Origin: Escherichia phage EP335
DNA: 64,000 nt
Reading direction: 5' to 3' (one strand)
Sequence record: MG748548
Shown here one piece after another: positions 2,719 to 63,165 of this stretch (positions are counted from its first letter, which is position 1; every line of letters begins with the position of its first letter). The position numbers and the translations under genes were made by a program. The notes under the pieces are model-generated. The model made no database searches and was not told where the DNA came from. It saw only the letters and a program-made list of their open reading frames with translations.

Positions 2719-3210
2719 ATGGATAATGTCGCATTGCCACCGATACAGCTGAGCTTAAGCCCAGACGGGATGGAATTCATCATGAAGCATGAAGGTATGA
2801 GAACTCGTGCTTACCAAGATTCCGCAGGTATCTGGACGATATGTGTTGGGGCTACGCGCGATATGAATGGGTATCCAGTTAGACAGGGATTAACGTATTC
2901 TATAGAGGATTGTCTAGCTCTGCTAGATAGAGACACACAAGACTCTGTTCGTGCCACTCAGAAAAATATTAGGGTTCCTTTGTTAACCCACGAGTTTGAT
3001 GCTCTCACCTCTTTCAACTTCAACGTTGGTGGTGGGGCTTTATCAACTTCTAAACTTAGGAAAGTTATTAACGGAGATGTAAAGGGTGATGTTTATTCTG
3101 AGTTCCTCCGTTGGGATAAAATTACAGTTAAAGGTAAGAAGATTAGCAGTCCGGGATTGAAGAATCGTAGAACTGCTGAAGCTGACCTTTACACTGAAGG
3201 TAAATACTAA
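2719..3210 (+). CDS. Endolysin, glycoside hydrolase family 24 lysozyme
   Basis: GGAGG RBS; motif HEGMRTRAYQDSAGIWTICVGAT matches the E-x8-D-x5-T catalytic region of P22 gp19 / lambda R-type lysozymes. Confidence 0.85.
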   Translation: MDNVALPPIQLSLSPDGMEFIMKHEGMRTRAYQDSAGIWTICVGATRDMNGYPVRQGLTYSIEDCLALLDRDTQDSVRATQKNIRVPLLTHEFDALTSFNFNVGGGALSTSKLRKVINGDVKGDVYSEFLRWDKITVKGKKISSPGLKNRRTAEADLYTEGKY

Positions 3211-3221
3211 AAGGAGTTGTC

Positions 3222-4025
3222 ATGGCAGTAGAAACTAATGCTAACACAATTAATGACCTCAACCCCCTGTACCCTCGTGACAGGGATTATCTTTACGAAG
3301 GGGCGGCTCAGATTCGCCTCGTTAAACAAGTATTGCAGAACACTTTTCCAAACGTAACAGAACCAGTTCAATTGGACTCAGACTCTCTCAATATTCTGGC
3401 TAGCAAAGTTACTTTTACTGGTGACTCTATGGATGTTGGTGGGTTGATGATCAAGAATGCAACTCCGGGTACAGGTGATAGAGATGTTGTCACTAAAGGC
3501 CAGATGGAAGCTTTCATGCAGAACTGGATGGCTAACAAAGTATTCAGGATTGGTTCTTACTATATCACTGAAGAAGATATTAACCCCGGTGATAGTTCTT
3601 CTCTTGGTTTTGGCTCTTGGGCTAAAGTGACTGGTGTTATTATGGGTTCTGGTGTAGTAAACCCTGACGGTTCTGTTCCTAATGCTCAGCGTGTTGAATT
3701 CCAAGCAGGTGGTACAGGTGGTCGTGTGTTTAACACTATCCGTGCTGATAACCTACCTCTTGTAACTATCAATGGCTCAAGCTTCTCTGTATCTAGTAAC
3801 ACTCACGGTCACAACATGGTGTTTGGTCGTGGTGACGCAAGTGGTCATAACAGCTCCCCTAACTGGTATAGTCCGGGTGGTGGTTATAGTCAGAGAACTG
3901 AAAATGATACACACTCTCACACAATCTCTGGTTCTGTATCTTTTGGTCGTGATGATGTTTCTCGTCAGCCAATTAATACTTTACCACCTTTCCGATCTGC
4001 ACACATCTGGAGACGTATTAGCTAA
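3222..4025 (+). CDS. Tail fibre / receptor-binding-like protein with His-x-His motifs
   Basis: Position in the tail module; C-terminal THGHN, SGHN, THSHT motifs resemble metal-binding HxH repeats of fibre tips. Confidence 0.55.
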   Translation: MAVETNANTINDLNPLYPRDRDYLYEGAAQIRLVKQVLQNTFPNVTEPVQLDSDSLNILASKVTFTGDSMDVGGLMIKNATPGTGDRDVVTKGQMEAFMQNWMANKVFRIGSYYITEEDINPGDSSSLGFGSWAKVTGVIMGSGVVNPDGSVPNAQRVEFQAGGTGGRVFNTIRADNLPLVTINGSSFSVSSNTHGHNMVFGRGDASGHNSSPNWYSPGGGYSQRTENDTHSHTISGSVSFGRDDVSRQPINTLPPFRSAHIWRRIS

Positions 4026-48705: not shown

Positions 48706-49096
48706 ACCTACTCCTGTTGTTTACACTCACCAATAACCCACTGATAAGAAGTGGATTGACCTGAAAAGAAACACTGAATAAATCCAGACGTTCTCTGCGT
48801 TACCAGTGCTAGTGCACATATCACTACCGCTGCTGCTAGCAGTTTCATATCTAATTTAGACATATTTCCTCTCTTTGAATTTAAAAAAGGACTCTCCGAA
48901 AAGAGCCAAGCTTTAAATACAAAAAGATATTACCCAATATCTGTGGATAACCTGCTCTTAAAATATCTATCCGACGGATGTTCGAGGATTGTTCCTCTCC
49001 CTAGCATCGGCCCCATACGGGAAATATATTAAGATTAGGTTAGTTGAGTCAGAATGACTCACATAGCCCTCCGAAGGGAAGGCTATAAATGTCACT

Positions 49097-49339
49097 CTAT
49101 TTATCCCCACCAAAGGCGAGGTAGGCATCTCTGATTTCAGTAACCTGTGAATCAGGTTTGAATGCAGACAAATGTCCTGTGTTCAGGTTAACTGCGTTGG
49201 CAGGGATGATGCAACCCTCTACTTTAGTATCAGGGATTTTCATGTAGTAACTTGAAAAGTGCTCTGCTGAGAAAACTTCTCCAACAGTGATATCACTAAT
49301 CTTCGCTAGAACATCCTTAGCTGGTTGCCCTATTTTCAT
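49097..49339 (-). CDS. Small-paralog-family protein A
   Basis: Family motif ISDITVGEVF...YYMKI...AVNLNTG shared with ten other small genes. Confidence 0.55.
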   Translation of the reverse strand: MKIGQPAKDVLAKISDITVGEVFSAEHFSSYYMKIPDTKVEGCIIPANAVNLNTGHLSAFKPDSQVTEIRDAYLAFGGDK

Positions 49340-53503: not shown

Positions 53504-53579
53504 TGGTGCGCCCTACAGGATTCGAACCTGTAACCAATAGCTTAGAAGGCTACTGCTCTATCCGTTGAGCTAAGAGCGC
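53504..53579 (-). tRNA. tRNA-Arg (anticodon UCU), CCA encoded
   Basis: Reverse complement folds as a canonical cloverleaf: acceptor GCGCTCT/AGGGCGC, D-arm GCTC-AACGGATA-GAGC, anticodon arm GTAGC-CTTCTAA-GCTAT, T-arm ACAGG-TTCGAAT-CCTGT, then A-CCA. Confidence 0.9.
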
Positions 53580-53938: not shown

Positions 53939-54190
53939 TCAAGCACATGCAGGGAGTGTAACGATCTCAGGTTTACCTTCGAACTCTTCAAACAAACCCA
54001 AGAACGTCGGGCTATACGTACCAGTACAAACAAACTCATCAAAGAGTTCATTGTACGAAGGCTTAATCTTCCAAGCCCACACATAGCCCATCTTATCAAT
54101 CGCAATGTGACGAGTGTTCAGAGGAACAGCCATCATCACATCACCTACTGCAATAACTTTGGTTATCGGTGCAGCTTGGAAGTTTTTCAT
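53939..54190 (-). CDS. Hypothetical protein (possible distant member of the small-paralog family)
   Basis: 83-aa ORF; VIAVGDVMM...YVWAWKIK loosely resembles the family motif. Confidence 0.4.
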   Translation of the reverse strand: MKNFQAAPITKVIAVGDVMMAVPLNTRHIAIDKMGYVWAWKIKPSYNELFDEFVCTGTYSPTFLGLFEEFEGKPEIVTLPACA

Positions 54191-54362
54191 ACTTTACCTT
54201 TGATTCGCACGTTGTTGATGTAACAGGAAGGACAAGGACGAACAACTTCCCCGCCTTCTTTGATTATCTTAATCTCACTACGAGTGATATTCACACGAGC
54301 ACCACAACAAGGAGAATTAACGTAAGAGTAACCAGATTGGGTATGTTTGATGATTTGCTTGT

Positions 54363-54626
54363 TCATATTACACCTCTTTCGGAGATTTCAGCAACAAACC
54401 AGACTTGTGGAGTGTGTTGATAAACTTCATACGACTTGACTACGGATAAGCAGTATTCTAAGAAACCTTTCACAAGAATTGTTGTTTTCTCTACAGGGAT
54501 TTCTGAAATGTCAACACCAAAGATTTCCATAACAACCTCACCCTTTTGGATGATGCGAACATTCATATCAGTACCTCTTGTTAGTTTAAGTAAGAGTTGG
54601 CCCTTAATTAAAACAACAAAGGCCAC
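54363..54626 (-). CDS. Hypothetical protein
   Basis: 87-aa track ORF; start uncertain. Confidence 0.35.
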   Translation of the reverse strand: MAFVVLIKGQLLLKLTRGTDMNVRIIQKGEVVMEIFGVDISEIPVEKTTILVKGFLEYCLSVVKSYEVYQHTPQVWFVAEISERGVI

Positions 54627-54639
54627 CCGAAGGTAGCCT
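54605..54639 (-). terminator. Rho-independent terminator (AGGCUACC-UUCG-GGUGGCCU then U-run)
   Basis: 8-bp stem, UUCG tetraloop, then UUUGUUGUUUUAAUU on the - strand just downstream of the stop at 54647. Confidence 0.65.
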
Positions 54640-54646
54640 TATTTGA

Positions 54647-54868
54647 TCAGTTTTGCTTTAAGCCGAGCAGTCTGTTCTGTAAGAACTCATCCTCTGCATT
54701 GTACAGGAAAGCGAACAACAACTCTTTAGCCATATCTCGTGAGCAGTTAAGGCACTTAGAGATTTGAGTCAGTTGGAGATTTCGATCATCGTGTTCAACT
54801 ACAGCAATGCGAATGATCTCTCGCATACCGAACACATGAGTTGACTTAGCCGCCATAAGACCAATCAC
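54647..54868 (-). CDS. Hypothetical protein
   Basis: 73-aa ORF followed by a strong terminator. Confidence 0.45.
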   Translation of the reverse strand: MIGLMAAKSTHVFGMREIIRIAVVEHDDRNLQLTQISKCLNCSRDMAKELLFAFLYNAEDEFLQNRLLGLKQN

Positions 54869-55344
54869 CTTGACGTTTACGGATGTTACCAGTCAGACGC
54901 AGCATGGCAGACTCAATCTTCAGAGCACCATTTGCTACTGCATCCATACGCTCAGGACGGTTCATACGCTTGGTTGACTTCTTCATAACGTTCTCTCTTT
55001 GTTAGTGGAGGCATTATTGCCAGTTGATATAAGGGATAGCCCTAGTCAGGAGGCTAATTCTGACCGCGTACTCATTGCCGACCTTCTCTGCCTAAGAGTT
55101 CAGGTTCTAGAGCTATCTCTTATTCCAACTGGTGAAGACCTCCTACCCCTAGGAGATCTCCCAAATCCCAAACCAATACGTACCCCTACGTAGTGGAAAG
55201 TCTACCGAAATTGAACAGGTTTTAGTCTAACACCGGATGTTCGAGCAAGCTCTCCCTAGCGGTGCGGCATATGCCTGATTGATATATTTAATGAGGAACA
55301 CCCTCACATAGCCCTCTGATAAACACAAGGGCTATAAGTCGGTG

Positions 55345-55563
55345 TTACTTTTGGGATAAACACAGATCAGGACGTGGCATAACAGTGGTTGATAGACCGA
55401 AGACTTCAACAGAACCGCTGTTCAGATCGGCGGCCTTACACAAACCATCAGGAGTTTTATCTTCTAACATCAGCCAGAAACGTCTATCGTAAGAGAAAAC
55501 ATCACCACCTTTAACATCTTCTGCATTTGCATATTTAGGATAATCCACTACTTTAATTTCCAT
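55345..55563 (-). CDS. Small-paralog-family protein I
   Basis: AEDVKGGDVF...FWLML...AADLNSG. Confidence 0.55.
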   Translation of the reverse strand: MEIKVVDYPKYANAEDVKGGDVFSYDRRFWLMLEDKTPDGLCKAADLNSGSVEVFGLSTTVMPRPDLCLSQK

Positions 55564-55818
55564 CTACTTACCTTTATTAGTAACTACTGCATCAGGAATA
55601 AGGACTACAGGAATATCTGAAGCGAGCTTCATGACCTGATTGATGTTTAAATTGATCACCACACAACCCGCACTAGGCTTAACTTCGGCTACGTGTGGAG
55701 TGAAGAGTTGAACAACCATGTAATAACTTATACCGGTGTTTTTAACTTGGAACACATCGCCTAGTTTCAGATCACTCAACTTAAGTTCTGGATTCTTCCA
55801 CTCAAGATCAATCTTCAT
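55564..55818 (-). CDS. Small-paralog-family protein J
   Basis: LSDLKLGDVF...YYMVV...VINLNIN. Confidence 0.55.
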   Translation of the reverse strand: MKIDLEWKNPELKLSDLKLGDVFQVKNTGISYYMVVQLFTPHVAEVKPSAGCVVINLNINQVMKLASDIPVVLIPDAVVTNKGK

Positions 55819-56065
55819 CTTTAACCTCTATATTGGTTATGTGGAGATCATTGCGCACTTGGCAGATTTCATTTCTACTGATAGCGACAAGCACCCCTGA
55901 TACTACACTAACACAGTTTACGTGATAGTCAGTTGTTGAACCTGTTCTGATAAAAAGTTTATCTCGGAAAGAAAATAAAACCCCTGGCTTCATATTGCCC
56001 AAACGGAGTATCGTACCATCAGATTTAATATTAACCTTCACTGTTGATCTCCTGTTGCTTGGCAA
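55808..56065 (-). CDS. Small-paralog-family protein K (divergent)
   Basis: ILRLGNMKPGVLF...LFIRTG...VSVVSG. Confidence 0.45.
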   Translation of the reverse strand: MPSNRRSTVKVNIKSDGTILRLGNMKPGVLFSFRDKLFIRTGSTTDYHVNCVSVVSGVLVAISRNEICQVRNDLHITNIEVKDED

Positions 56066-56336
56066 TAGCTACTCGCAAGTCTTCATTAGCACGAGCAAGG
56101 CGTTTAACTTCATGATCAAGGCTGATAAGGCGCTTATTTCTATCTTCAACCTGTTCAACCAGATCAAAAAGCTCAACTCTCACCTTTTCTGTATACATCT
56201 CCTCTACTTTAACCAGACTGTTATAGCGACGTTCCCAGCTGGCTGCTTTATTGCGTAGCATAATAAAACCTAACACAGCAACAGTTAACAGCAATACAAG
56301 TAAGAATTTATATACTTCAATACTCATCTTATTCAC
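56031..56336 (-). CDS. Membrane-anchored coiled-coil protein
   Basis: N-terminal TM FLLVLLLTVAVLGFIM followed by a charged heptad region. Confidence 0.45.
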   Translation of the reverse strand: MNKMSIEVYKFLLVLLLTVAVLGFIMLRNKAASWERRYNSLVKVEEMYTEKVRVELFDLVEQVEDRNKRLISLDHEVKRLARANEDLRVAIAKQQEINSEG

Positions 56337-56525
56337 CTTTAAAGTAAGTTATTATAAGAAATATTATTTAGAATTATTATTTTCTAAACATAATTTCTAT
56401 AATCTTTTTCAGAGGTCTATATACAGTCATTACCCCTAGTTCCAAATTGCTTCCACTTTTCAGCGACTATTTTCTAAGTGGTTGGTTTATAAGGGAATTT
56501 AGTTTGTCAATTCTGGCACCTATGA

Positions 56526-56912
56526 TTATTCATGAGCATCATTATTGAACACTAAATCACCACAATACATCGGATTGGTATACCACTTTGGCACCCCCTC
56601 GCTCTTACTCTGAAAGTAGGTTCCACTATACAGAGGAACATAATTCTTCTTGAGAGCACGTCTAGCAAGCTGTTCGCTTTCCCTTATGGCTTGTTTAGTC
56701 ATAGGATTATCATCACGAATCAACTTTACATAACGCTTAAAAGGTTTCTCCTTTCTAAGTAATACAGGAATCCACTCAAACTGGTTCTTTTGTCTTATCA
56801 CCTGTTCAGCGGTCAGTTTTCGTTGTGACATTCTGTTTATTACGGTATCCGCAACTAGTGCTTTACATGCGGTTGGCTGATTCCCTGCCTCATAATAAAT
56901 AGTCAATGTCAA
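56526..56912 (-). CDS. Cell-wall hydrolase (SleB-like, Hydrolase_2 family)
   Basis: TIYYEAGNQP...ACKALVADTVINRM resembles the SleB-type motif AR.IYAEARGE...AVA.VVLNRV. Confidence 0.55.
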   Translation of the reverse strand: MTLTIYYEAGNQPTACKALVADTVINRMSQRKLTAEQVIRQKNQFEWIPVLLRKEKPFKRYVKLIRDDNPMTKQAIRESEQLARRALKKNYVPLYSGTYFQSKSEGVPKWYTNPMYCGDLVFNNDAHE

Positions 56913-57301
56913 AAGTAGCTGGGCCGTTGTTATCAGAACTTACTACCCCCTATTCTATGGGTACAAAAAAGCCCCAGCCGTAGCCGGGGCAAACCTGAAA
57001 GCAATACATGACTATTGCAGTAAATGCACTCGTAAATGCGCTTACGGCAACGACAAAAGCCGCTCAAAGGCGGCTATGTGGAAGCTTCAAATGGGGAGAG
57101 GGCACGACGCTACAGAAAGAGCGTCATAGTACTAAAAAGAGAGGCTATTGGAGAGGTTACTTATTGCCTTCCTTAATGCCTTGTTTTCTTGTTTAACCAA
57201 TTCGTTTTCTTCTTGCAAGGATGCTACCAGATGGACCAGAACATCAACTACTGCATCACCTTGCCGCATCTCTCTGACTTTATTTAGAATCTCTGAATAA
57301 A

Positions 57302-60420: not shown

Positions 60421-61347
60421 CCGCTTTTTAATCTTTTTCGTCGTTCCCTTTATTGGGAGGAGATATCAATCAGCTATATTTGATTGAAGATTAAGCGGTA
60501 ATGCTTAACTTATGATTCATATTTTTAAAGAGCGGTTACTACACTTTCAGCTTAACACATCGTGTTAGCTTGTCAACCTCTTTTTTATCATCTTCTTTTA
60601 ATTCCGTTCCCTTATCTCGCGTGAATCTTTGCGAAAGGGCAAGACGATAAGTCTGATTTGTCTTTTAGGAATCTAGTGCGCTTTCAAGCATCGACCATTT
60701 GAAAGTATCGAACAAATGAGGCTTATTTTGTTGCTCATCGTCCGCCTGTTTCACGTATGAATCAGGAATCAATTCTAGCGGTCAACTAAGCGCCTTATAG
60801 TAATGACGTTACCGCCACCTGTAAGACAAATCATATTTTTAAAGAGCGTAGCACTTCGTTGTGCGTCTTACCATCGGTATTCCTACCGCTCCCCCGTTGA
60901 AGCCTTTTACCGTGATGCTAATCACCTATCAGGGAGTCTTGTTGCTTGTTGCTTACTGCTTACTACGGGATTCATATTAATATACAGGAAAATTATGTCA
61001 ATACCCTTTTTTCAAATTATTTTACATCTCATTGATTTATAAAGGTTTTTATTTTACTTCACTCTGGAACTAGCAACGATTTATAGGCTGGCAGTGTTAT
61101 AAAGTAACATAAAAAGTATCATAATCGTGACGTAATAGACCACGCGCGGGATAACATACGCAAAACAGGCTGTAAAGCAGTTTCTAACGTCCTGTAAGCC
61201 ATTCTAACGAGCTAAAAGGGGGCAAGGCATACAATCACCCTATAAATGAAAAAAGCCTCATAGAGAGGCTTATAGGAAGGATTTAAAGTATTAGATAGAT
61301 TATGACCATAGGCATGACTACGGCACAATACAGGAGAAAGATTAATC

Positions 61348-62961: not shown

Positions 62962-63165
62962 TTTCGCTAATCCTTTCGGTTGATGTGAACTACAAACTAC
63001 ACTCGCAACTATATATTAAAGGAAAAAACTGTCAACTATTTATTTTCTAACTTTCTTATAACTCACTGAATCATAAAGGAATTTAATTTACTAAACTTTC
63101 TCATTCAGGGCATAGCTTACTACTCTTATTGTTACTTTATAACATAACGCCAGACCAACGGGGAG

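What the first reader, a model, noticed from the sequence alone, without database searches (positions are those of the whole stretch)
55228..55345. Conserved ~130-bp non-coding element, copy 2 (downstream of paralog I)
Second copy of the element described at 48955-49095: GGATGTTCGAGcaagCTCTCCCTAGCggtgCGGC...CACATAGCCCTctgataaacacaaGGGCTATAAG. It is embedded in a 340-bp non-coding stretch (55000-55345) that is long for this compact genome, so it may carry additional regulatory or RNA-coding content.
Basis: seen in the sequence. Interest (0 to 1): 0.5.

Follow-up and report, generated by a model that had tools for sequence, protein, structure and literature searches.

The report
Conserved folded RNA in phage early operon
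The flagged stretch is one of two copies of an undescribed, strongly conserved folded RNA domain, read from the gene-sense (minus) strand of the early operon of a phiEco32-like coliphage; its function is untested, and it most likely binds a protein that controls what happens to the early transcript.

Summary
The window is a phiEco32-like Kuravirus. Coordinates 55228-55345 hold the 5' part of a 358-nt intergenic region (54987-55344), and a second copy of the element lies at 48948-49088. Genes here run on the minus strand, and the element folds on that strand as RNA.

The shared core is two hairpins after a stop codon (H1, H2), a small hairpin (H3), and a helix (P4) enclosing a 7x7 internal loop (CUAGGGA/GAACAUC) capped by a short helix (P5).
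- Between the two copies, and across more than 100 phages, the helices change by compensatory substitutions while the loops stay fixed.
- The element also occurs in the 7-11 group (a different phage family) and in an unrelated metagenomic contig.
- It matches no Rfam family. It is not a tRNA, not coding, and not a consensus promoter or terminator.

Copy 1 is followed by a conserved intrinsic terminator. Copy 2 is followed by G-loop hairpins and a ~25-bp hairpin carrying a 61-nt module shared with P22-like gene-24 leaders.

Function is inferred only. My best guess is a protein-recognised RNA that controls read-through or processing of the early transcript. A stable trans-acting RNA is almost equally likely. 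I rate it a new RNA family of a known general kind, of moderate interest.

The parts
55307..55337 (-). Copy 2, H1: a 10-bp hairpin (UAUAGCCCUU...GAGGGCUAUG) starting 8 nt after the stop codon of ORF 55345-55563.
   Evidence: (100% of cells paired in 19 distinct sequences). No U tract follows, so it is not an intrinsic terminator.
55293..55305 (-). Copy 2, H2: a small hairpin, GAGG-GUGUU-CCUC.
   Evidence: The equivalent hairpin in copy 1 (GAGUCA/UGACUC) varies by compensatory changes in relatives, for example GAGCUA/UGGCUC and GAGUUA/UAACUC.
55276..55292 (-). Copy 2, A/U-rich linker between H2 and H3.
   Evidence: It contains -10-like hexamers but no consensus promoter.
55266..55275 (-). Copy 2, H3: a hairpin GGC-AUAU-GCC. 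The C-RUAU-G centre is invariant and the closing pairs vary.
   Evidence: Variants seen are CCC/GGG, GCC/GGC, GGC/GCC, and ACCC/GGG(A) in L138.
55231..55264 (-). Copy 2, core: helix P4 (CACCG/CGGUG), a 7x7 internal loop (5' strand CUAGGGA at 55253-55259; 3' strand GAACAUC at 55236-55242), and helix P5 (GAGC-UU-GCUC).
   Evidence: 4 of 6 P4 pairs show changes on both sides, 96-99% of cells are paired, and slid controls give 30-46%; 12 of 14 loop bases are invariant. The remaining two bases covary as A..G (19 sequences), C..A (11) and A..A (2), and never as C..G.
55197..55230 (-). Copy 2, conserved single-stranded linker UUAGACUAAAACCUGUU...
   Evidence: UAGACUAAAACCUG is invariant in 19 distinct sequences.
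55173..55196 (-). Copy 2, H6: a 10-bp hairpin with a GGGG loop. It is homologous to 48925-48942 of copy 1, which has a GGGU loop.
   Evidence: 9 pairs, 2 with changes on both sides, and G-U intermediates such as C-G / U-G / U-A.
55134..55162 (-). Copy 2, H7: a 12-bp hairpin with a GGGG loop. It is preceded by the invariant sequence UUUGGGAU (within the 55163-55172 linker).
   Evidence: (5 pairs with changes on both sides).
55020..55132 (-). Copy 2, H8: a long irregular hairpin of about 25 bp, the length of an RNase III substrate.
   Evidence: 17 pairs, 7 with changes on both sides; z-score -4.2.
55046..55106 (-). A 61-nt module inserted at the tip of H8. It is shared with the leader between nutL and gene 24 of the P22-like phages SE1, ST64T and S149, including the 22-nt identical stretch UCGGCAAUGAGUACGCGGUCAG.
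   Evidence: It is absent from SU7, Bas87, EK010, LAMP, PE006 and NJ01. P22 itself carries a different module at that place.
54984..55021 (-). Copy 2, H9 (a small hairpin within GGCAAUAAUGCC), followed by UCCACUAACAAAGAGAGA and the AUG of the 46-aa ORF 54846-54986 (the phi32_112 homologue).
48948..49088 (-). Copy 1 of the element: H1 49062-49088; H2 49046-49060; outer helices P1 (49037-42 with 48948-53) and P2 (49029-34 with 48956-61); H3 49012-49021; P4 / internal loop / P5 48971-49010.
   Evidence: (z-score -5.1). Support for P2 is only moderate. P1 never varies, so it is untested.
48880..48942 (-). Copy 1, 3' part: H6 (48925-48942, GGGU loop), then an A-tract, the hairpin GGCUCUUUUCGGAGAGUC and a U6 run. 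This is an intrinsic terminator; the hairpin and its C+U6 tail span 48907-48883. The AUG of the next gene lies about 20 nt further on.
   Evidence: The terminator is conserved in Kuravirus, Suseptimavirus and the 7-11 group, and is annotated as a terminator in 7-11, SU7 and 4E8.
55345..55563 (-). The upstream 72-aa gene (phi32_113 homologue), a member of a small-protein family with nine paralogs in the window.
   Evidence: The AlphaFold model has pLDDT 88 and is an SH3-like barrel.

Best explanation
SHOWN. The element is a folded RNA domain, not a DNA signal, a gene or a decaying duplicate. It is transcribed as part of the leftward (minus-strand) early transcript.

Its core is H3 plus helix P4, a 7x7 internal loop, and helix P5. 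This core is held constant in three unrelated phage lineages, while the helices drift through compensatory changes. The fixed loop bases, and the covarying non-Watson-Crick A.G / C.A / A.A pair next to P5, look like a docking surface for a partner.

INFERRED, and my commitment. The partner is a protein, either host RNA polymerase or an elongation factor, or a phage early protein. The RNA acts in cis on the transcript that carries it, in the manner of nut, put or LoaP-leader elements. It lets the polymerase pass, or sets how often it passes, the intrinsic terminators that follow:
- 48907-48890, directly after copy 1;
- 54640-54619, about 590 nt after the core of copy 2.

As a by-product, it would leave a very stable RNA piece bounded by the UUCG-type hairpin H1 and by the terminator (copy 1) or by the RNase III-type hairpin H8 (copy 2).

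The confidence given (0.35) is for this inferred mechanism. That the element is a conserved, sense-strand folded RNA domain I hold at about 0.9.
For: RNA-level structure on the sense strand:
- In the core, 96-99% of cells are paired, 4 of 6 P4 pairs change on both sides, and slid controls give 30-46%.
- H6, H7 and H8 have 2, 5 and 7 pairs with changes on both sides, and many G-U cells.
- The consensus fold energy is -86 kcal/mol on the sense strand against -56 on the antisense strand. For copy 1 the values are -57 and -38.
- A divergent contig (L138) folds on its own into the same H3 / P4 / loop / P5 arrangement.

Selection:
- The proteins encoded upstream of the two copies have diverged to about 21-26% identity, yet three blocks of the element remain identical.
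- The intergenic region is 93-98% identical in Kuraviruses, while the surrounding 3 kb is about 80% identical.

Link to termination:
- The copy-1 element and a canonical terminator stay together across Kuravirus, Suseptimavirus and Moazamivirus.
- The next gene starts about 20 nt after the terminator.
- The published descriptions place sigma-70 early promoters only at the far right end: promoter positions reported in the SU10 genome paper for SU10, described there as like phiEco32 (PMC4281155), and primer-extension validation in 7-11 (PMC8948821). Read-through is therefore needed to express some 20-40 downstream genes.
- The window shows strong promoter-like sites at 63035, 61001 and 60420, and sense-strand terminators at 54640 and 48907.

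Weaker hints:
- The hairpin after copy 2 carries a module shared with the nutL-gene 24 leader of P22-like phages.
- The adjacent paralog family has an SH3 / KOW / Tudor-like fold, a fold that includes RNA-binding and polymerase-binding domains.
Against: - No experiment bears on the function.
- There is no sequence similarity to HK022 putL/putR, and no boxA/boxB.
- Both copies lie 5-11 kb from the known promoters. Three strong sense-strand terminators (61271, 58549, 56990) lie upstream of copy 2 with no such element before them, so read-through apparently happens without it.
- No alternative antiterminator pairing is conserved. AAGAGC:GCUCUU exists only in Kuraviruses (sequences).
- L138 has no convincing terminator downstream.
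- The conserved RNA of copy 2 is about 350 nt, far larger than known nut or put sites.
- Invariance of the loop is partly built in, because several sequences were collected with a pattern that fixes those bases.
Confidence: 0.35

Rival explanations
1. A stable trans-acting non-coding RNA, in two sibling copies. The RNA is released from the early transcript, with its 3' end set by the terminator for copy 1 and by RNase III cleavage in H8 for copy 2. It would titrate or guide a host or phage factor through the invariant internal loop and the GGG(G) loops, in the way CsrB/RsmZ-type sponges or sibling small RNAs do.
For: - Copy 1 has the layout of an RNA gene: a structured body, an A/U-rich stretch, a terminator hairpin and U6. 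This layout is conserved as a unit across phage families.
- Very stable end hairpins are present (UUCG-capped H1 in phiEco32-type copies).
- The two copies keep the same loops while their helices differ, as sibling RNAs that share a partner do.
- About 350 nt of copy 2, linkers included, are 93-98% conserved.
- The downstream genes differ between lineages: a 51-aa membrane protein, an endolysin, a 46-aa protein. That argues against control of one particular gene.
Against: - No own promoter could be shown.
- The 5' end is undefined.
- Neither copy 2 nor L138 has a terminator.
- The G-rich loops do not fit the CsrA GGA consensus in many variants (AGGGC, GGGG).
- No complementary targets were found in the phage, and nothing similar was found in E. 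coli genomes.
Confidence: 0.3
2. Passive punctuation of the polycistronic early mRNA. On this view the hairpins merely protect the 3' ends of upstream cistrons and provide RNase III/RNase E processing sites, as the intercistronic RNase III sites of T7 early RNA do.
For: - H1 starts 8-14 nt after a stop codon and is very stable.
- H8 is a duplex of about 25 bp, the length of an RNase III substrate.
- The matching region in P22-like phages lies in the leader of the N-like gene 24. By my own knowledge, the equivalent leader in lambda is cut by RNase III.
Against: - Stability hairpins do not need 12 invariant bases in an internal loop, a covarying non-canonical pair, or conserved single-stranded linkers.
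- P4 (5-7 bp) and P5 (3-5 bp) are too short for RNase III.
- Other intergenic hairpins in this operon do not carry the motif.
Confidence: 0.13
3. A ligand- or protein-responsive leader (riboswitch-like or autoregulatory) that controls expression of the gene immediately downstream. The same sensor domain would be joined to different expression platforms: a terminator in copy 1 and hairpins before the ribosome-binding site in copy 2 and L138.
For: - The pattern is aptamer-like: invariant loop and junction bases with covarying helices.
- In copy 1 the core is closed by outer helices into a multi-branch domain, followed by a terminator.
- The same core sits in front of three different 3' arrangements.
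Against: - There is no Rfam riboswitch match, even at E = 10.
- There is no conserved, mutually exclusive terminator/antiterminator pairing.
- The outer helices P1 and P2 are absent from copy 2 and only weakly supported.
- The downstream genes are unrelated to one another.
Confidence: 0.1
4. A DNA-level signal: a promoter (with H1/H2 insulating upstream transcription and the RNA starting near H3), or a replication or single-strand initiation site made of DNA hairpins.
For: - A -10-like hexamer lies 1-9 nt upstream of H3 in most variants: TATATT, TATAAT, TTTAAT, AACAAT.
- G-T wobbles would also be tolerated in single-stranded DNA hairpins.
Against: - The promoter scans found nothing in copy 2 and only a 9/12 match in copy 1, which is within the chance expectation.
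- The -35 regions are poor.
- In copy-1-type sequences a start about 7 nt after the hexamer would cut off the 5' arm of H3, yet H3 keeps pairing through compensatory changes.
- The gp36 promoter motif TAATGTATA is absent.
- The published descriptions place no early promoter here.
Confidence: 0.06
5. A neutral remnant of a local gene-plus-flank duplication, with no function.
For: Both copies follow members of one paralog family.
Against: - The paralogous proteins are about 21-26% identical, yet blocks of the element are identical.
- The helices changed only in compensatory fashion.
- The element is conserved across phage families, and in a contig with no detectable protein homology to this phage.
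Confidence: 0.02

Closest known systems
HK022 putL/putR (polymerase-utilisation RNAs)
   Same: - Folded RNA elements in phage early transcripts, present twice per genome.
- Irregular stems with functionally important internal loops.
- They act (put) or may act (this element) on terminators downstream of them (PMC9378689).
   Different: - No sequence similarity.
- put is about 70 nt with two stems and lies close to PL/PR. This element has a different architecture (H3 plus P4 / 7x7 loop / P5), is embedded in 210-350 nt of conserved structure, and lies 5-11 kb from the known promoters.
- Binding to RNA polymerase has not been tested.
Lambda/P22 nut sites and the leader of N / gene 24
   Same: - Part of the copy-2 intergenic region (55046-55106) is homologous to the SE1/ST64T leader between nutL and gene 24.
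- In both phages it sits at the tip of a hairpin of about 25 bp.
   Different: - The flagged core has no boxA or boxB.
- The shared module is downstream of nutL, is optional in both phage groups, and lies outside the repeated element.
LoaP (NusG paralog) with its leader RNA hairpin; RfaH/ops
   Same: A small beta-barrel (KOW-type) protein working together with a cis element to allow read-through of terminators in long operons. This is an analogy, from my own knowledge. The neighbouring paralog family here is SH3 / KOW / Tudor-like.
   Different: - No NGN domain is present.
- No evidence of binding exists.
- The paralog is not always adjacent to the element.
T7 early-mRNA RNase III processing sites
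   Same: Conserved intercistronic hairpins with internal loops in a phage early polycistronic RNA. H8 has a suitable length.
   Different: The repeated core has helices of only 3-7 bp and a symmetric 7x7 loop with invariant sequence, so it is not a duplex substrate of about 20 bp.
Terminator-ended (3'-UTR-derived) small RNAs and sibling or sponge RNAs such as CsrB/RsmZ
   Same: - Copy 1 ends in a hairpin plus U6 preceded by an A/U-rich stretch.
- Several hairpins display G-rich loops.
- The two sibling copies have the same loops.
   Different: - No own promoter was found.
- The loops are GGGG/GGGU rather than ANGGA.
- Copy 2 runs straight into the next gene.
Transcriptional riboswitches
   Same: A conserved sensor-like core with covarying helices, followed in copy 1 by an intrinsic terminator.
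   Different: - No match to any Rfam class.
- No conserved alternative pairing.
- The outer closing helices are not shared by copy 2.

Membership tests
Any Rfam 15 family | A match to a curated covariance model | tested here: not met
   At gathering thresholds, the whole window yields only tRNA-Arg at 53507-53579. For 54900-55450 at E up to 10 there are no matches.
HK022 put RNA | Sequence or structure similarity to putL/putR | tested here: not met
   blastn-short of both copies against HK022 22.0-33.0 kb (the PL/PR region) gives only exact words of 8-11 nt and near-exact matches of up to 15 nt, at chance level.
HK022 put RNA | Position shortly downstream of an early promoter | tested here: not met
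   The strong promoter-like sites are at 63035, 61001 and 60420. The early promoter positions described for SU10, and there said to be as in phiEco32, are also only at that end (PMC4281155). The two copies lie 5 and 11 kb further on.
HK022 put RNA | Protein-independent antitermination through the beta' zinc-binding domain | not testable with these tools
   This needs in vitro transcription or genetics.
Lambdoid nut site | boxA (CGCUCUUUAAC-like) followed by a boxB hairpin | tested here: not met
   Reading the sequences shows only a loose resemblance, UGCUCGAACA, and this is base-paired within P5. By contrast, SE1 shows a clear boxA and boxB upstream of the shared module.
Intrinsic terminator | A G+C-rich hairpin followed directly by a U tract | tested here: not met
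   For the flagged hairpin H1 of copy 2, the scan of 54800-55600 finds no terminator. The feature is met only by the separate hairpin 48907-48890 plus U6 after copy 1.
Sigma-70 promoter | -35 and -10 hexamers at 16-18 nt spacing | tested here: inconclusive
   No hit in copy 2. One 9/12 hit in copy 1 (CTGACT-18-TATATT), within the chance expectation. A -10-like hexamer recurs before H3, but the implied start would remove part of the conserved H3.
phiEco32 gp36 (phage sigma) promoter | The single element tAATGTAtA 6-8 nt upstream of the start (PMC8948821) | tested here: not met
   With up to 1 mismatch there is no site in 48880-49100 or in 54984-55345.
tRNA / tmRNA | A cloverleaf recognised by ARAGORN | tested here: not met
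   The only gene found is tRNA-Arg(UCU) at 53504-53579.
Transcriptional riboswitch | A conserved aptamer together with a conserved, mutually exclusive terminator/antiterminator pairing | tested here: not met
   The core has aptamer-like conservation. However, the only candidate antiterminator (AAGAGC:GCUCUU) is confined to Kuraviruses and is missing in 7-11, pSal01 and L205 (sequences). Copy 2 and L138 have no terminator.
RNase III processing site | About two turns (20 bp or more) of mostly double-stranded RNA | tested here: inconclusive
   H8 (55020-55132) meets this structurally. The repeated core (P4 5-7 bp, P5 3-5 bp) does not. Cleavage itself cannot be tested here.
Type III toxin-antitoxin (RNA repeats, terminator, toxin gene) | Tandem RNA repeats upstream of a ToxN/AbiQ-type endoribonuclease gene | tested here: not met
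   There is a single unit at each locus. The downstream genes are a 51-aa protein and a 46-aa protein with no Pfam match at or above the curated cut-off (the 46-aa protein has only a sub-threshold DUF7799 hit).
Protein-coding gene | A conserved open reading frame | tested here: not met
   Sense-strand ORFs are 33 aa or shorter and start with TTG. Relatives differ by indels of 1-61 nt. The ORFs annotated inside the region in Bas87 are not open in this window.

The most novel reading that the evidence does not exclude
The core (H3 plus P4 / 7x7 loop / P5) may define a new class of phage RNA that reprogrammes the host transcription or RNA-decay machinery. It could be a processive antiterminator unrelated to nut and put, working alone or with the neighbouring SH3/KOW-like small proteins. 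Alternatively, it could be a decoy that captures a host factor.

The class would be spread across unrelated phage families. It would be accompanied by a 61-nt RNA module that moves between the tips of long leader hairpins of podoviruses as different as phiEco32-like and P22-like phages.
Probability: 0.25. Interest if true: 0.75.

Novelty: new member of a known kind. Interest (0 to 1): 0.55.

Why it matters
phiEco32-like phages are a model for takeover of host RNA polymerase by a phage sigma factor (gp36) and an inhibitor (gp79). It is still not explained how their early operon of about 20 kb, studded with strong terminators, is transcribed from promoters at one end only.

This element is a candidate piece of that puzzle. 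It is a folded RNA that is better conserved than the genes around it. It is retained twice per genome and is shared with the 7-11 group and with an unrelated metagenomic phage. It can be tested directly with a handful of point mutations in a 14-base internal loop.

There is also a practical gain. Several GenBank records annotate short ORFs across this region that are probably not genes.

Tried and rejected
- Rfam, at gathering thresholds and at E up to 10: nothing.
- ARAGORN: only the nearby tRNA-Arg.
- Comparison with the HK022 put region: only chance words.
- Search of 5,426 complete E. coli genomes with the whole intergenic region: no match. The RNA therefore does not copy a host sequence at blastn sensitivity.
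- Pattern scan of genome contigs with too loose a pattern: 120 or more chance hits. After filtering with the covariance model, one true homologue remained, L138.
- Pattern scans of viral and metagenome contigs: only phiEco32-like and 7-11-like phages, plus chance hits.
- Search for complementary target sites of the loops and linkers inside the phage: only the trivial opposite strand and chance-level matches. Two partial complements of GAACAUCC lie in paralog coding regions at unrelated positions.
- Outer helices P1 and P2 of copy 1. P1 never varies. P2 is better than shuffles in Kuraviruses (p about 0.01) but not in the 7-11 group. I keep them as tentative. No equivalent could be found in copy 2.
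- A G-quadruplex formed from the G tracts of copy 2: rejected, because SU7-type sequences lack the fourth tract.
- A CsrA-type GGA sponge: rejected as a membership claim, because many loops read GGGG or GGGC.
- The idea that the upstream paralog is always the partner of the RNA: weakened, because in phiEco32 copy 1 and in L138 the adjacent gene belongs to no such family.
- My first attempt to add three IMG/VR sequences to the copy-2 alignment used wrong coordinates (rows x1-x3). It was redone.
Full report
WHAT THE WINDOW IS

The region 54000-57000 matches about 100 phiEco32-like coliphages (Gordonclarkvirinae, Kuravirus). The closest is KarlSchell_Bas89. All genes around the finding run on the minus strand.

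In phiEco32 coordinates, the finding lies between phi32_113 and phi32_112. The other copy lies between phi32_91 and phi32_90. Both are inside the cluster of small genes that the literature classes as early (PMC8948821; PMC4281155).

OBSERVATION

The quoted sequence is at 55228-55345 and the first copy at 48955-49095. Read on the minus strand, the two copies align in blocks:
- UAUAGCC...GGGCUAUGUGAG;
- an A/U-rich stretch;
- a short G+C hairpin;
- GCUAGGGAGAG, a variable loop, then CUCGAACAUCCG.

Each exact block occurs only at these two sites in 64 kb. The hairpin pattern TATAGCC-N(4-24)-GGCTAT occurs twice, against 0.03 expected. A covariance model of the core gives 81.6 and 62.5 bits at the two copies, and the next best hit scores 12.4 bits.

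The non-coding stretch is 54987-55344. On the sense strand it holds only TTG-started ORFs of 33 aa or less.

WHICH STRAND, AND DNA OR RNA?

The conserved helices contain many G-U pairs. Some pairs pass through G-U intermediates, for example C-G / U-G / U-A in H6. These would be C-A mismatches on the other strand.

The consensus fold energy of 19 distinct copy-2 sequences is -86.2 kcal/mol on the minus strand and -56.3 on the plus strand. For 13 copy-1 sequences the values are -57.5 and -38.0.

The folded species therefore has the sense of the genes. It is either the early transcript or, formally, the same strand as single-stranded DNA.

ANATOMY (coordinates)

Copy 2, in 5' to 3' order on the minus strand:
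- H1 (55307-55337), starting 8 nt after the stop codon of the 72-aa gene;
- H2 (55293-55305);
- an A/U linker;
- H3 (55266-55275), with an invariant C-RUAU-G centre;
- helix P4 enclosing a symmetric 7x7 internal loop (CUAGGGA / GAACAUC), capped by helix P5 (55231-55264);
- a conserved linker;
- H6 (55173-55196, GGGG loop);
- the invariant sequence UUUGGGAU;
- H7 (55134-55162, GGGG loop);
- a long hairpin H8 of about 25 bp (55020-55132);
- a small hairpin H9;
- the ribosome-binding site of the 46-aa gene.

Copy 1 has the same H1, H2, H3, P4 / loop / P5 and H6 (GGGU loop). It differs in three ways. The core may be closed by two outer helices, P1 and P2. H6 is followed by an A-tract, the hairpin GGCUCUUUUCGGAGAGUC and U6, which is a textbook intrinsic terminator. 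The next gene starts about 20 nt later.

STATISTICAL SUPPORT

On 32 distinct core sequences, 96.2% of cells form standard pairs, against 31-46% when partners are slid by 1-3 columns. Five pairs show changes on both sides, four of them in P4. On a MAFFT alignment not fitted to the structure, P4 and P5 are 99.4% paired.

Between the two copies of this window alone, the helices have changed as follows:
- P4: CCGAUG/CGUCGG in copy 1, CACCG/CGGUG in copy 2;
- H3: CCC/GGG in copy 1, GGC/GCC in copy 2;
- P5: GAGG/CCUC in copy 1, GAGC/GCUC in copy 2;
- H2: GAGUCA/UGACUC in copy 1, GAGG/CCUC in copy 2.

In the internal loop, 12 of 14 bases never vary. The two bases next to P5 covary as A..G (19 sequences), C..A (11) and A..A (2), and never as C..G. 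That is what a non-Watson-Crick (sheared-type) pair would show.

One caveat applies. Several sequences were collected with patterns that fix the loop bases, so loop invariance is partly by construction. It also holds, however, in the sequences found by whole-region BLAST.

H6, H7 and H8 have 2, 5 and 7 pairs with changes on both sides. P1 never varies. P2 is only moderately supported.

DISTRIBUTION

The copy-2 intergenic region is found in 124 phage records. It is 93-98% identical in Kuraviruses, whose surrounding 3 kb is only about 80% identical: phiEco32 97.8% against 81.5%, SU10 94.1% against 81.3%.

Copy 1, terminator included, is also present in Suseptimavirus and, at 68-77% identity, in Salmonella phages 7-11, SE131 and pSal-SNUABM-01 (Grimontviridae). 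The 7-11 paper reports little protein homology between 7-11 and phiEco32, and far less homology between the two subgroups than within the Kuraviruses (PMC8948821). 7-11 has one copy only.

A pattern scan filtered with the covariance model found one further homologue. It lies in a 48.7-kb contig binned as a Flavobacterium MAG (L138, 63.8 bits).
- The contig's ORFs share no detectable similarity with this phage.
- On its own, the sequence folds into H3, P4 (AAUAGCG/CGCUAUU), the 7x7 loop and P5. Two hairpins precede this core, and a hairpin with GGGG in its loop follows it.

Nothing similar exists in complete E. coli genomes.

CONTEXT

Both copies follow members of one small-protein family. The 80-aa protein hits phrog_12612 and also phrog_6570, the family of the 72-aa protein. 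An HMM of the family finds nine members in the window. The homologous position in 7-11, pSal01, SU7 and 4E8 also has a member, but phiEco32 copy 1 and L138 do not.

Promoter scans found no consensus promoter in copy 2 and one 9/12 match in copy 1, within chance. The gp36 promoter motif is absent.

Strong promoter-like sites lie at 63035, 61001 and 60420. Strong sense-strand terminators lie at 61271, 58549, 56990, 54640 and 48907. The SU10 genome paper places the early promoters at that far end, as in phiEco32. In 7-11, only the promoters in front of gene 151 were validated.

Genes downstream of the copy-1 terminator therefore depend on read-through, or on promoters not yet found.

THE REST OF THE 340-BP STRETCH

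Positions 55046-55106 match, at 79% over 67 nt with 22 identical in a row, the leader between nutL (clear boxA and boxB) and the N-like gene 24 of the P22-like phages SE1, ST64T and S149.

In both phage groups the shared piece sits at the tip of a hairpin of about 25 bp, and it is optional in both. It is missing from SU7, Bas87, EK010, LAMP, PE006 and NJ01, where H8 ends in a 5-7-nt loop. P22 itself carries a different apical segment.

It behaves like an exchangeable module and is not part of the repeated element.

HOW IT MOST LIKELY WORKS

Shown:
- it is a sense-strand folded RNA domain under strong purifying selection;
- its helices are interchangeable, while a 14-base internal loop, the H3 loop and G-rich loops are fixed.

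Inferred:
- Fixed, unpaired or non-canonically paired bases on a covarying scaffold are the signature of a docking site.
- The partner must be common to E. coli and Salmonella phages of different families, and to an unrelated phage. That points to conserved host machinery or to a small phage protein that travels with the RNA.
- The strongest positional clue is that core and terminator stay together in copy 1 across families, with no room for a promoter before the next gene.

I therefore commit, at about 0.35, to a cis-acting, protein-recognised element that governs read-through and processing of the early transcript. It would work like nut, put or the LoaP leader, without being a member of any of these families.

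The main weaknesses are:
- upstream terminators that lack the element;
- the long distance from the promoters;
- the absence of a conserved antiterminator pairing;
- the size of the conserved RNA.

These weaknesses favour the main rival (about 0.30): a stable, terminator- or RNase III-bounded non-coding RNA in two sibling copies that binds a factor in trans. The other readings are:
- passive mRNA punctuation (0.13);
- a riboswitch-like leader (0.10);
- a DNA-level signal (0.06);
- a neutral duplication remnant (0.02, contradicted by the covariation).

COMPARISON WITH WHAT IS KNOWN

No Rfam family matches. It is not a tRNA. There is no similarity to put, no boxA/boxB, no gp36 promoter and no conserved ORF.

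The papers I could search on phiEco32, SU10 and 7-11 describe promoters, terminators and one GTTCGG hairpin before the sigma gene. They do not mention this element. The primary phiEco32 transcription paper (Pavlova et al. 2012) was not available to me.

VERDICT

The element is best filed as a new family of phage structured RNA, that is, a new member of the general kind 'cis-regulatory or non-coding RNA of phage early operons'. Its function is unknown.

Interest is 0.55. The element is well supported, testable and relevant to an open question: how these phages transcribe a terminator-rich early operon. No mechanism has yet been shown.

Noticed in passing
window 55046-55106 (minus strand); L002 2501-2567 (Salmonella phage SE1): A 61-nt module at the tip of hairpin H8 is shared with the nutL-gene 24 leader of the P22-like phages SE1, ST64T and S149 (79% identity, 22 nt identical). 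It is optional in both phage groups. It is absent from SU7-, LAMP- and NJ01-type Kuraviruses, and P22 itself has a different segment there. It looks like an exchangeable RNA cassette that sits at the tips of long leader hairpins.
   Followed up: partly
[not shown]
   Followed up: partly
window, minus strand: 61271-61253, 58549-58522, 56990-56971, 54640-54619, 48907-48890: Five strong intrinsic-terminator-like hairpins lie in the sense orientation inside the early operon. Strong sigma-70-like promoters are seen only at 63035, 61001 and 60420. How the polymerase gets through is not explained by the papers I could read.
   Followed up: no
window 54987-55344 compared with 54000-57000: The intergenic region is much better conserved among Kuraviruses (93-98%) than the protein-coding DNA around it (about 80%).
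   Followed up: yes
window 55253 and 55242 (copy 2); 48993 and 48982 (copy 1): The internal-loop bases next to P5 covary as A..G, C..A or A..A, and never as C..G, in 32 distinct sequences. This suggests a non-Watson-Crick (sheared-type) pair.
   Followed up: partly
L138 (JBOFGJ010000684.1, 'Flavobacterium sp.' MAG contig of 48.7 kb), 3007-3257 and nearby ORFs: This contig carries a divergent copy of the RNA core. It consists of many small ORFs, at least four of which end in (D/E)EENE and start with a K-G-D-I/V motif, which suggests another small-barrel paralog family. It looks like a phage contig binned with a bacterial MAG.
   Followed up: partly
L177 175-342 and 324-443 (phage AnnaHegner_Bas87); KarlSchell_Bas89 66969-67342: Some GenBank records annotate short hypothetical proteins inside this intergenic region. 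These frames are not open in the window, and the region evolves like an RNA, so they are probably false gene calls.
   Followed up: partly
L182 24135-24845 (Salmonella phage 7-11, record 82134-82844): A 711-bp stretch with no annotated gene lies downstream of the 7-11 homologue of phi32_112. It does not contain the motif. It may hold other non-coding RNA.
   Followed up: no
window 53504-53579 (minus strand): tRNA-Arg(UCU) lies in the early operon, 1.4 kb downstream of copy 2.
   Followed up: no
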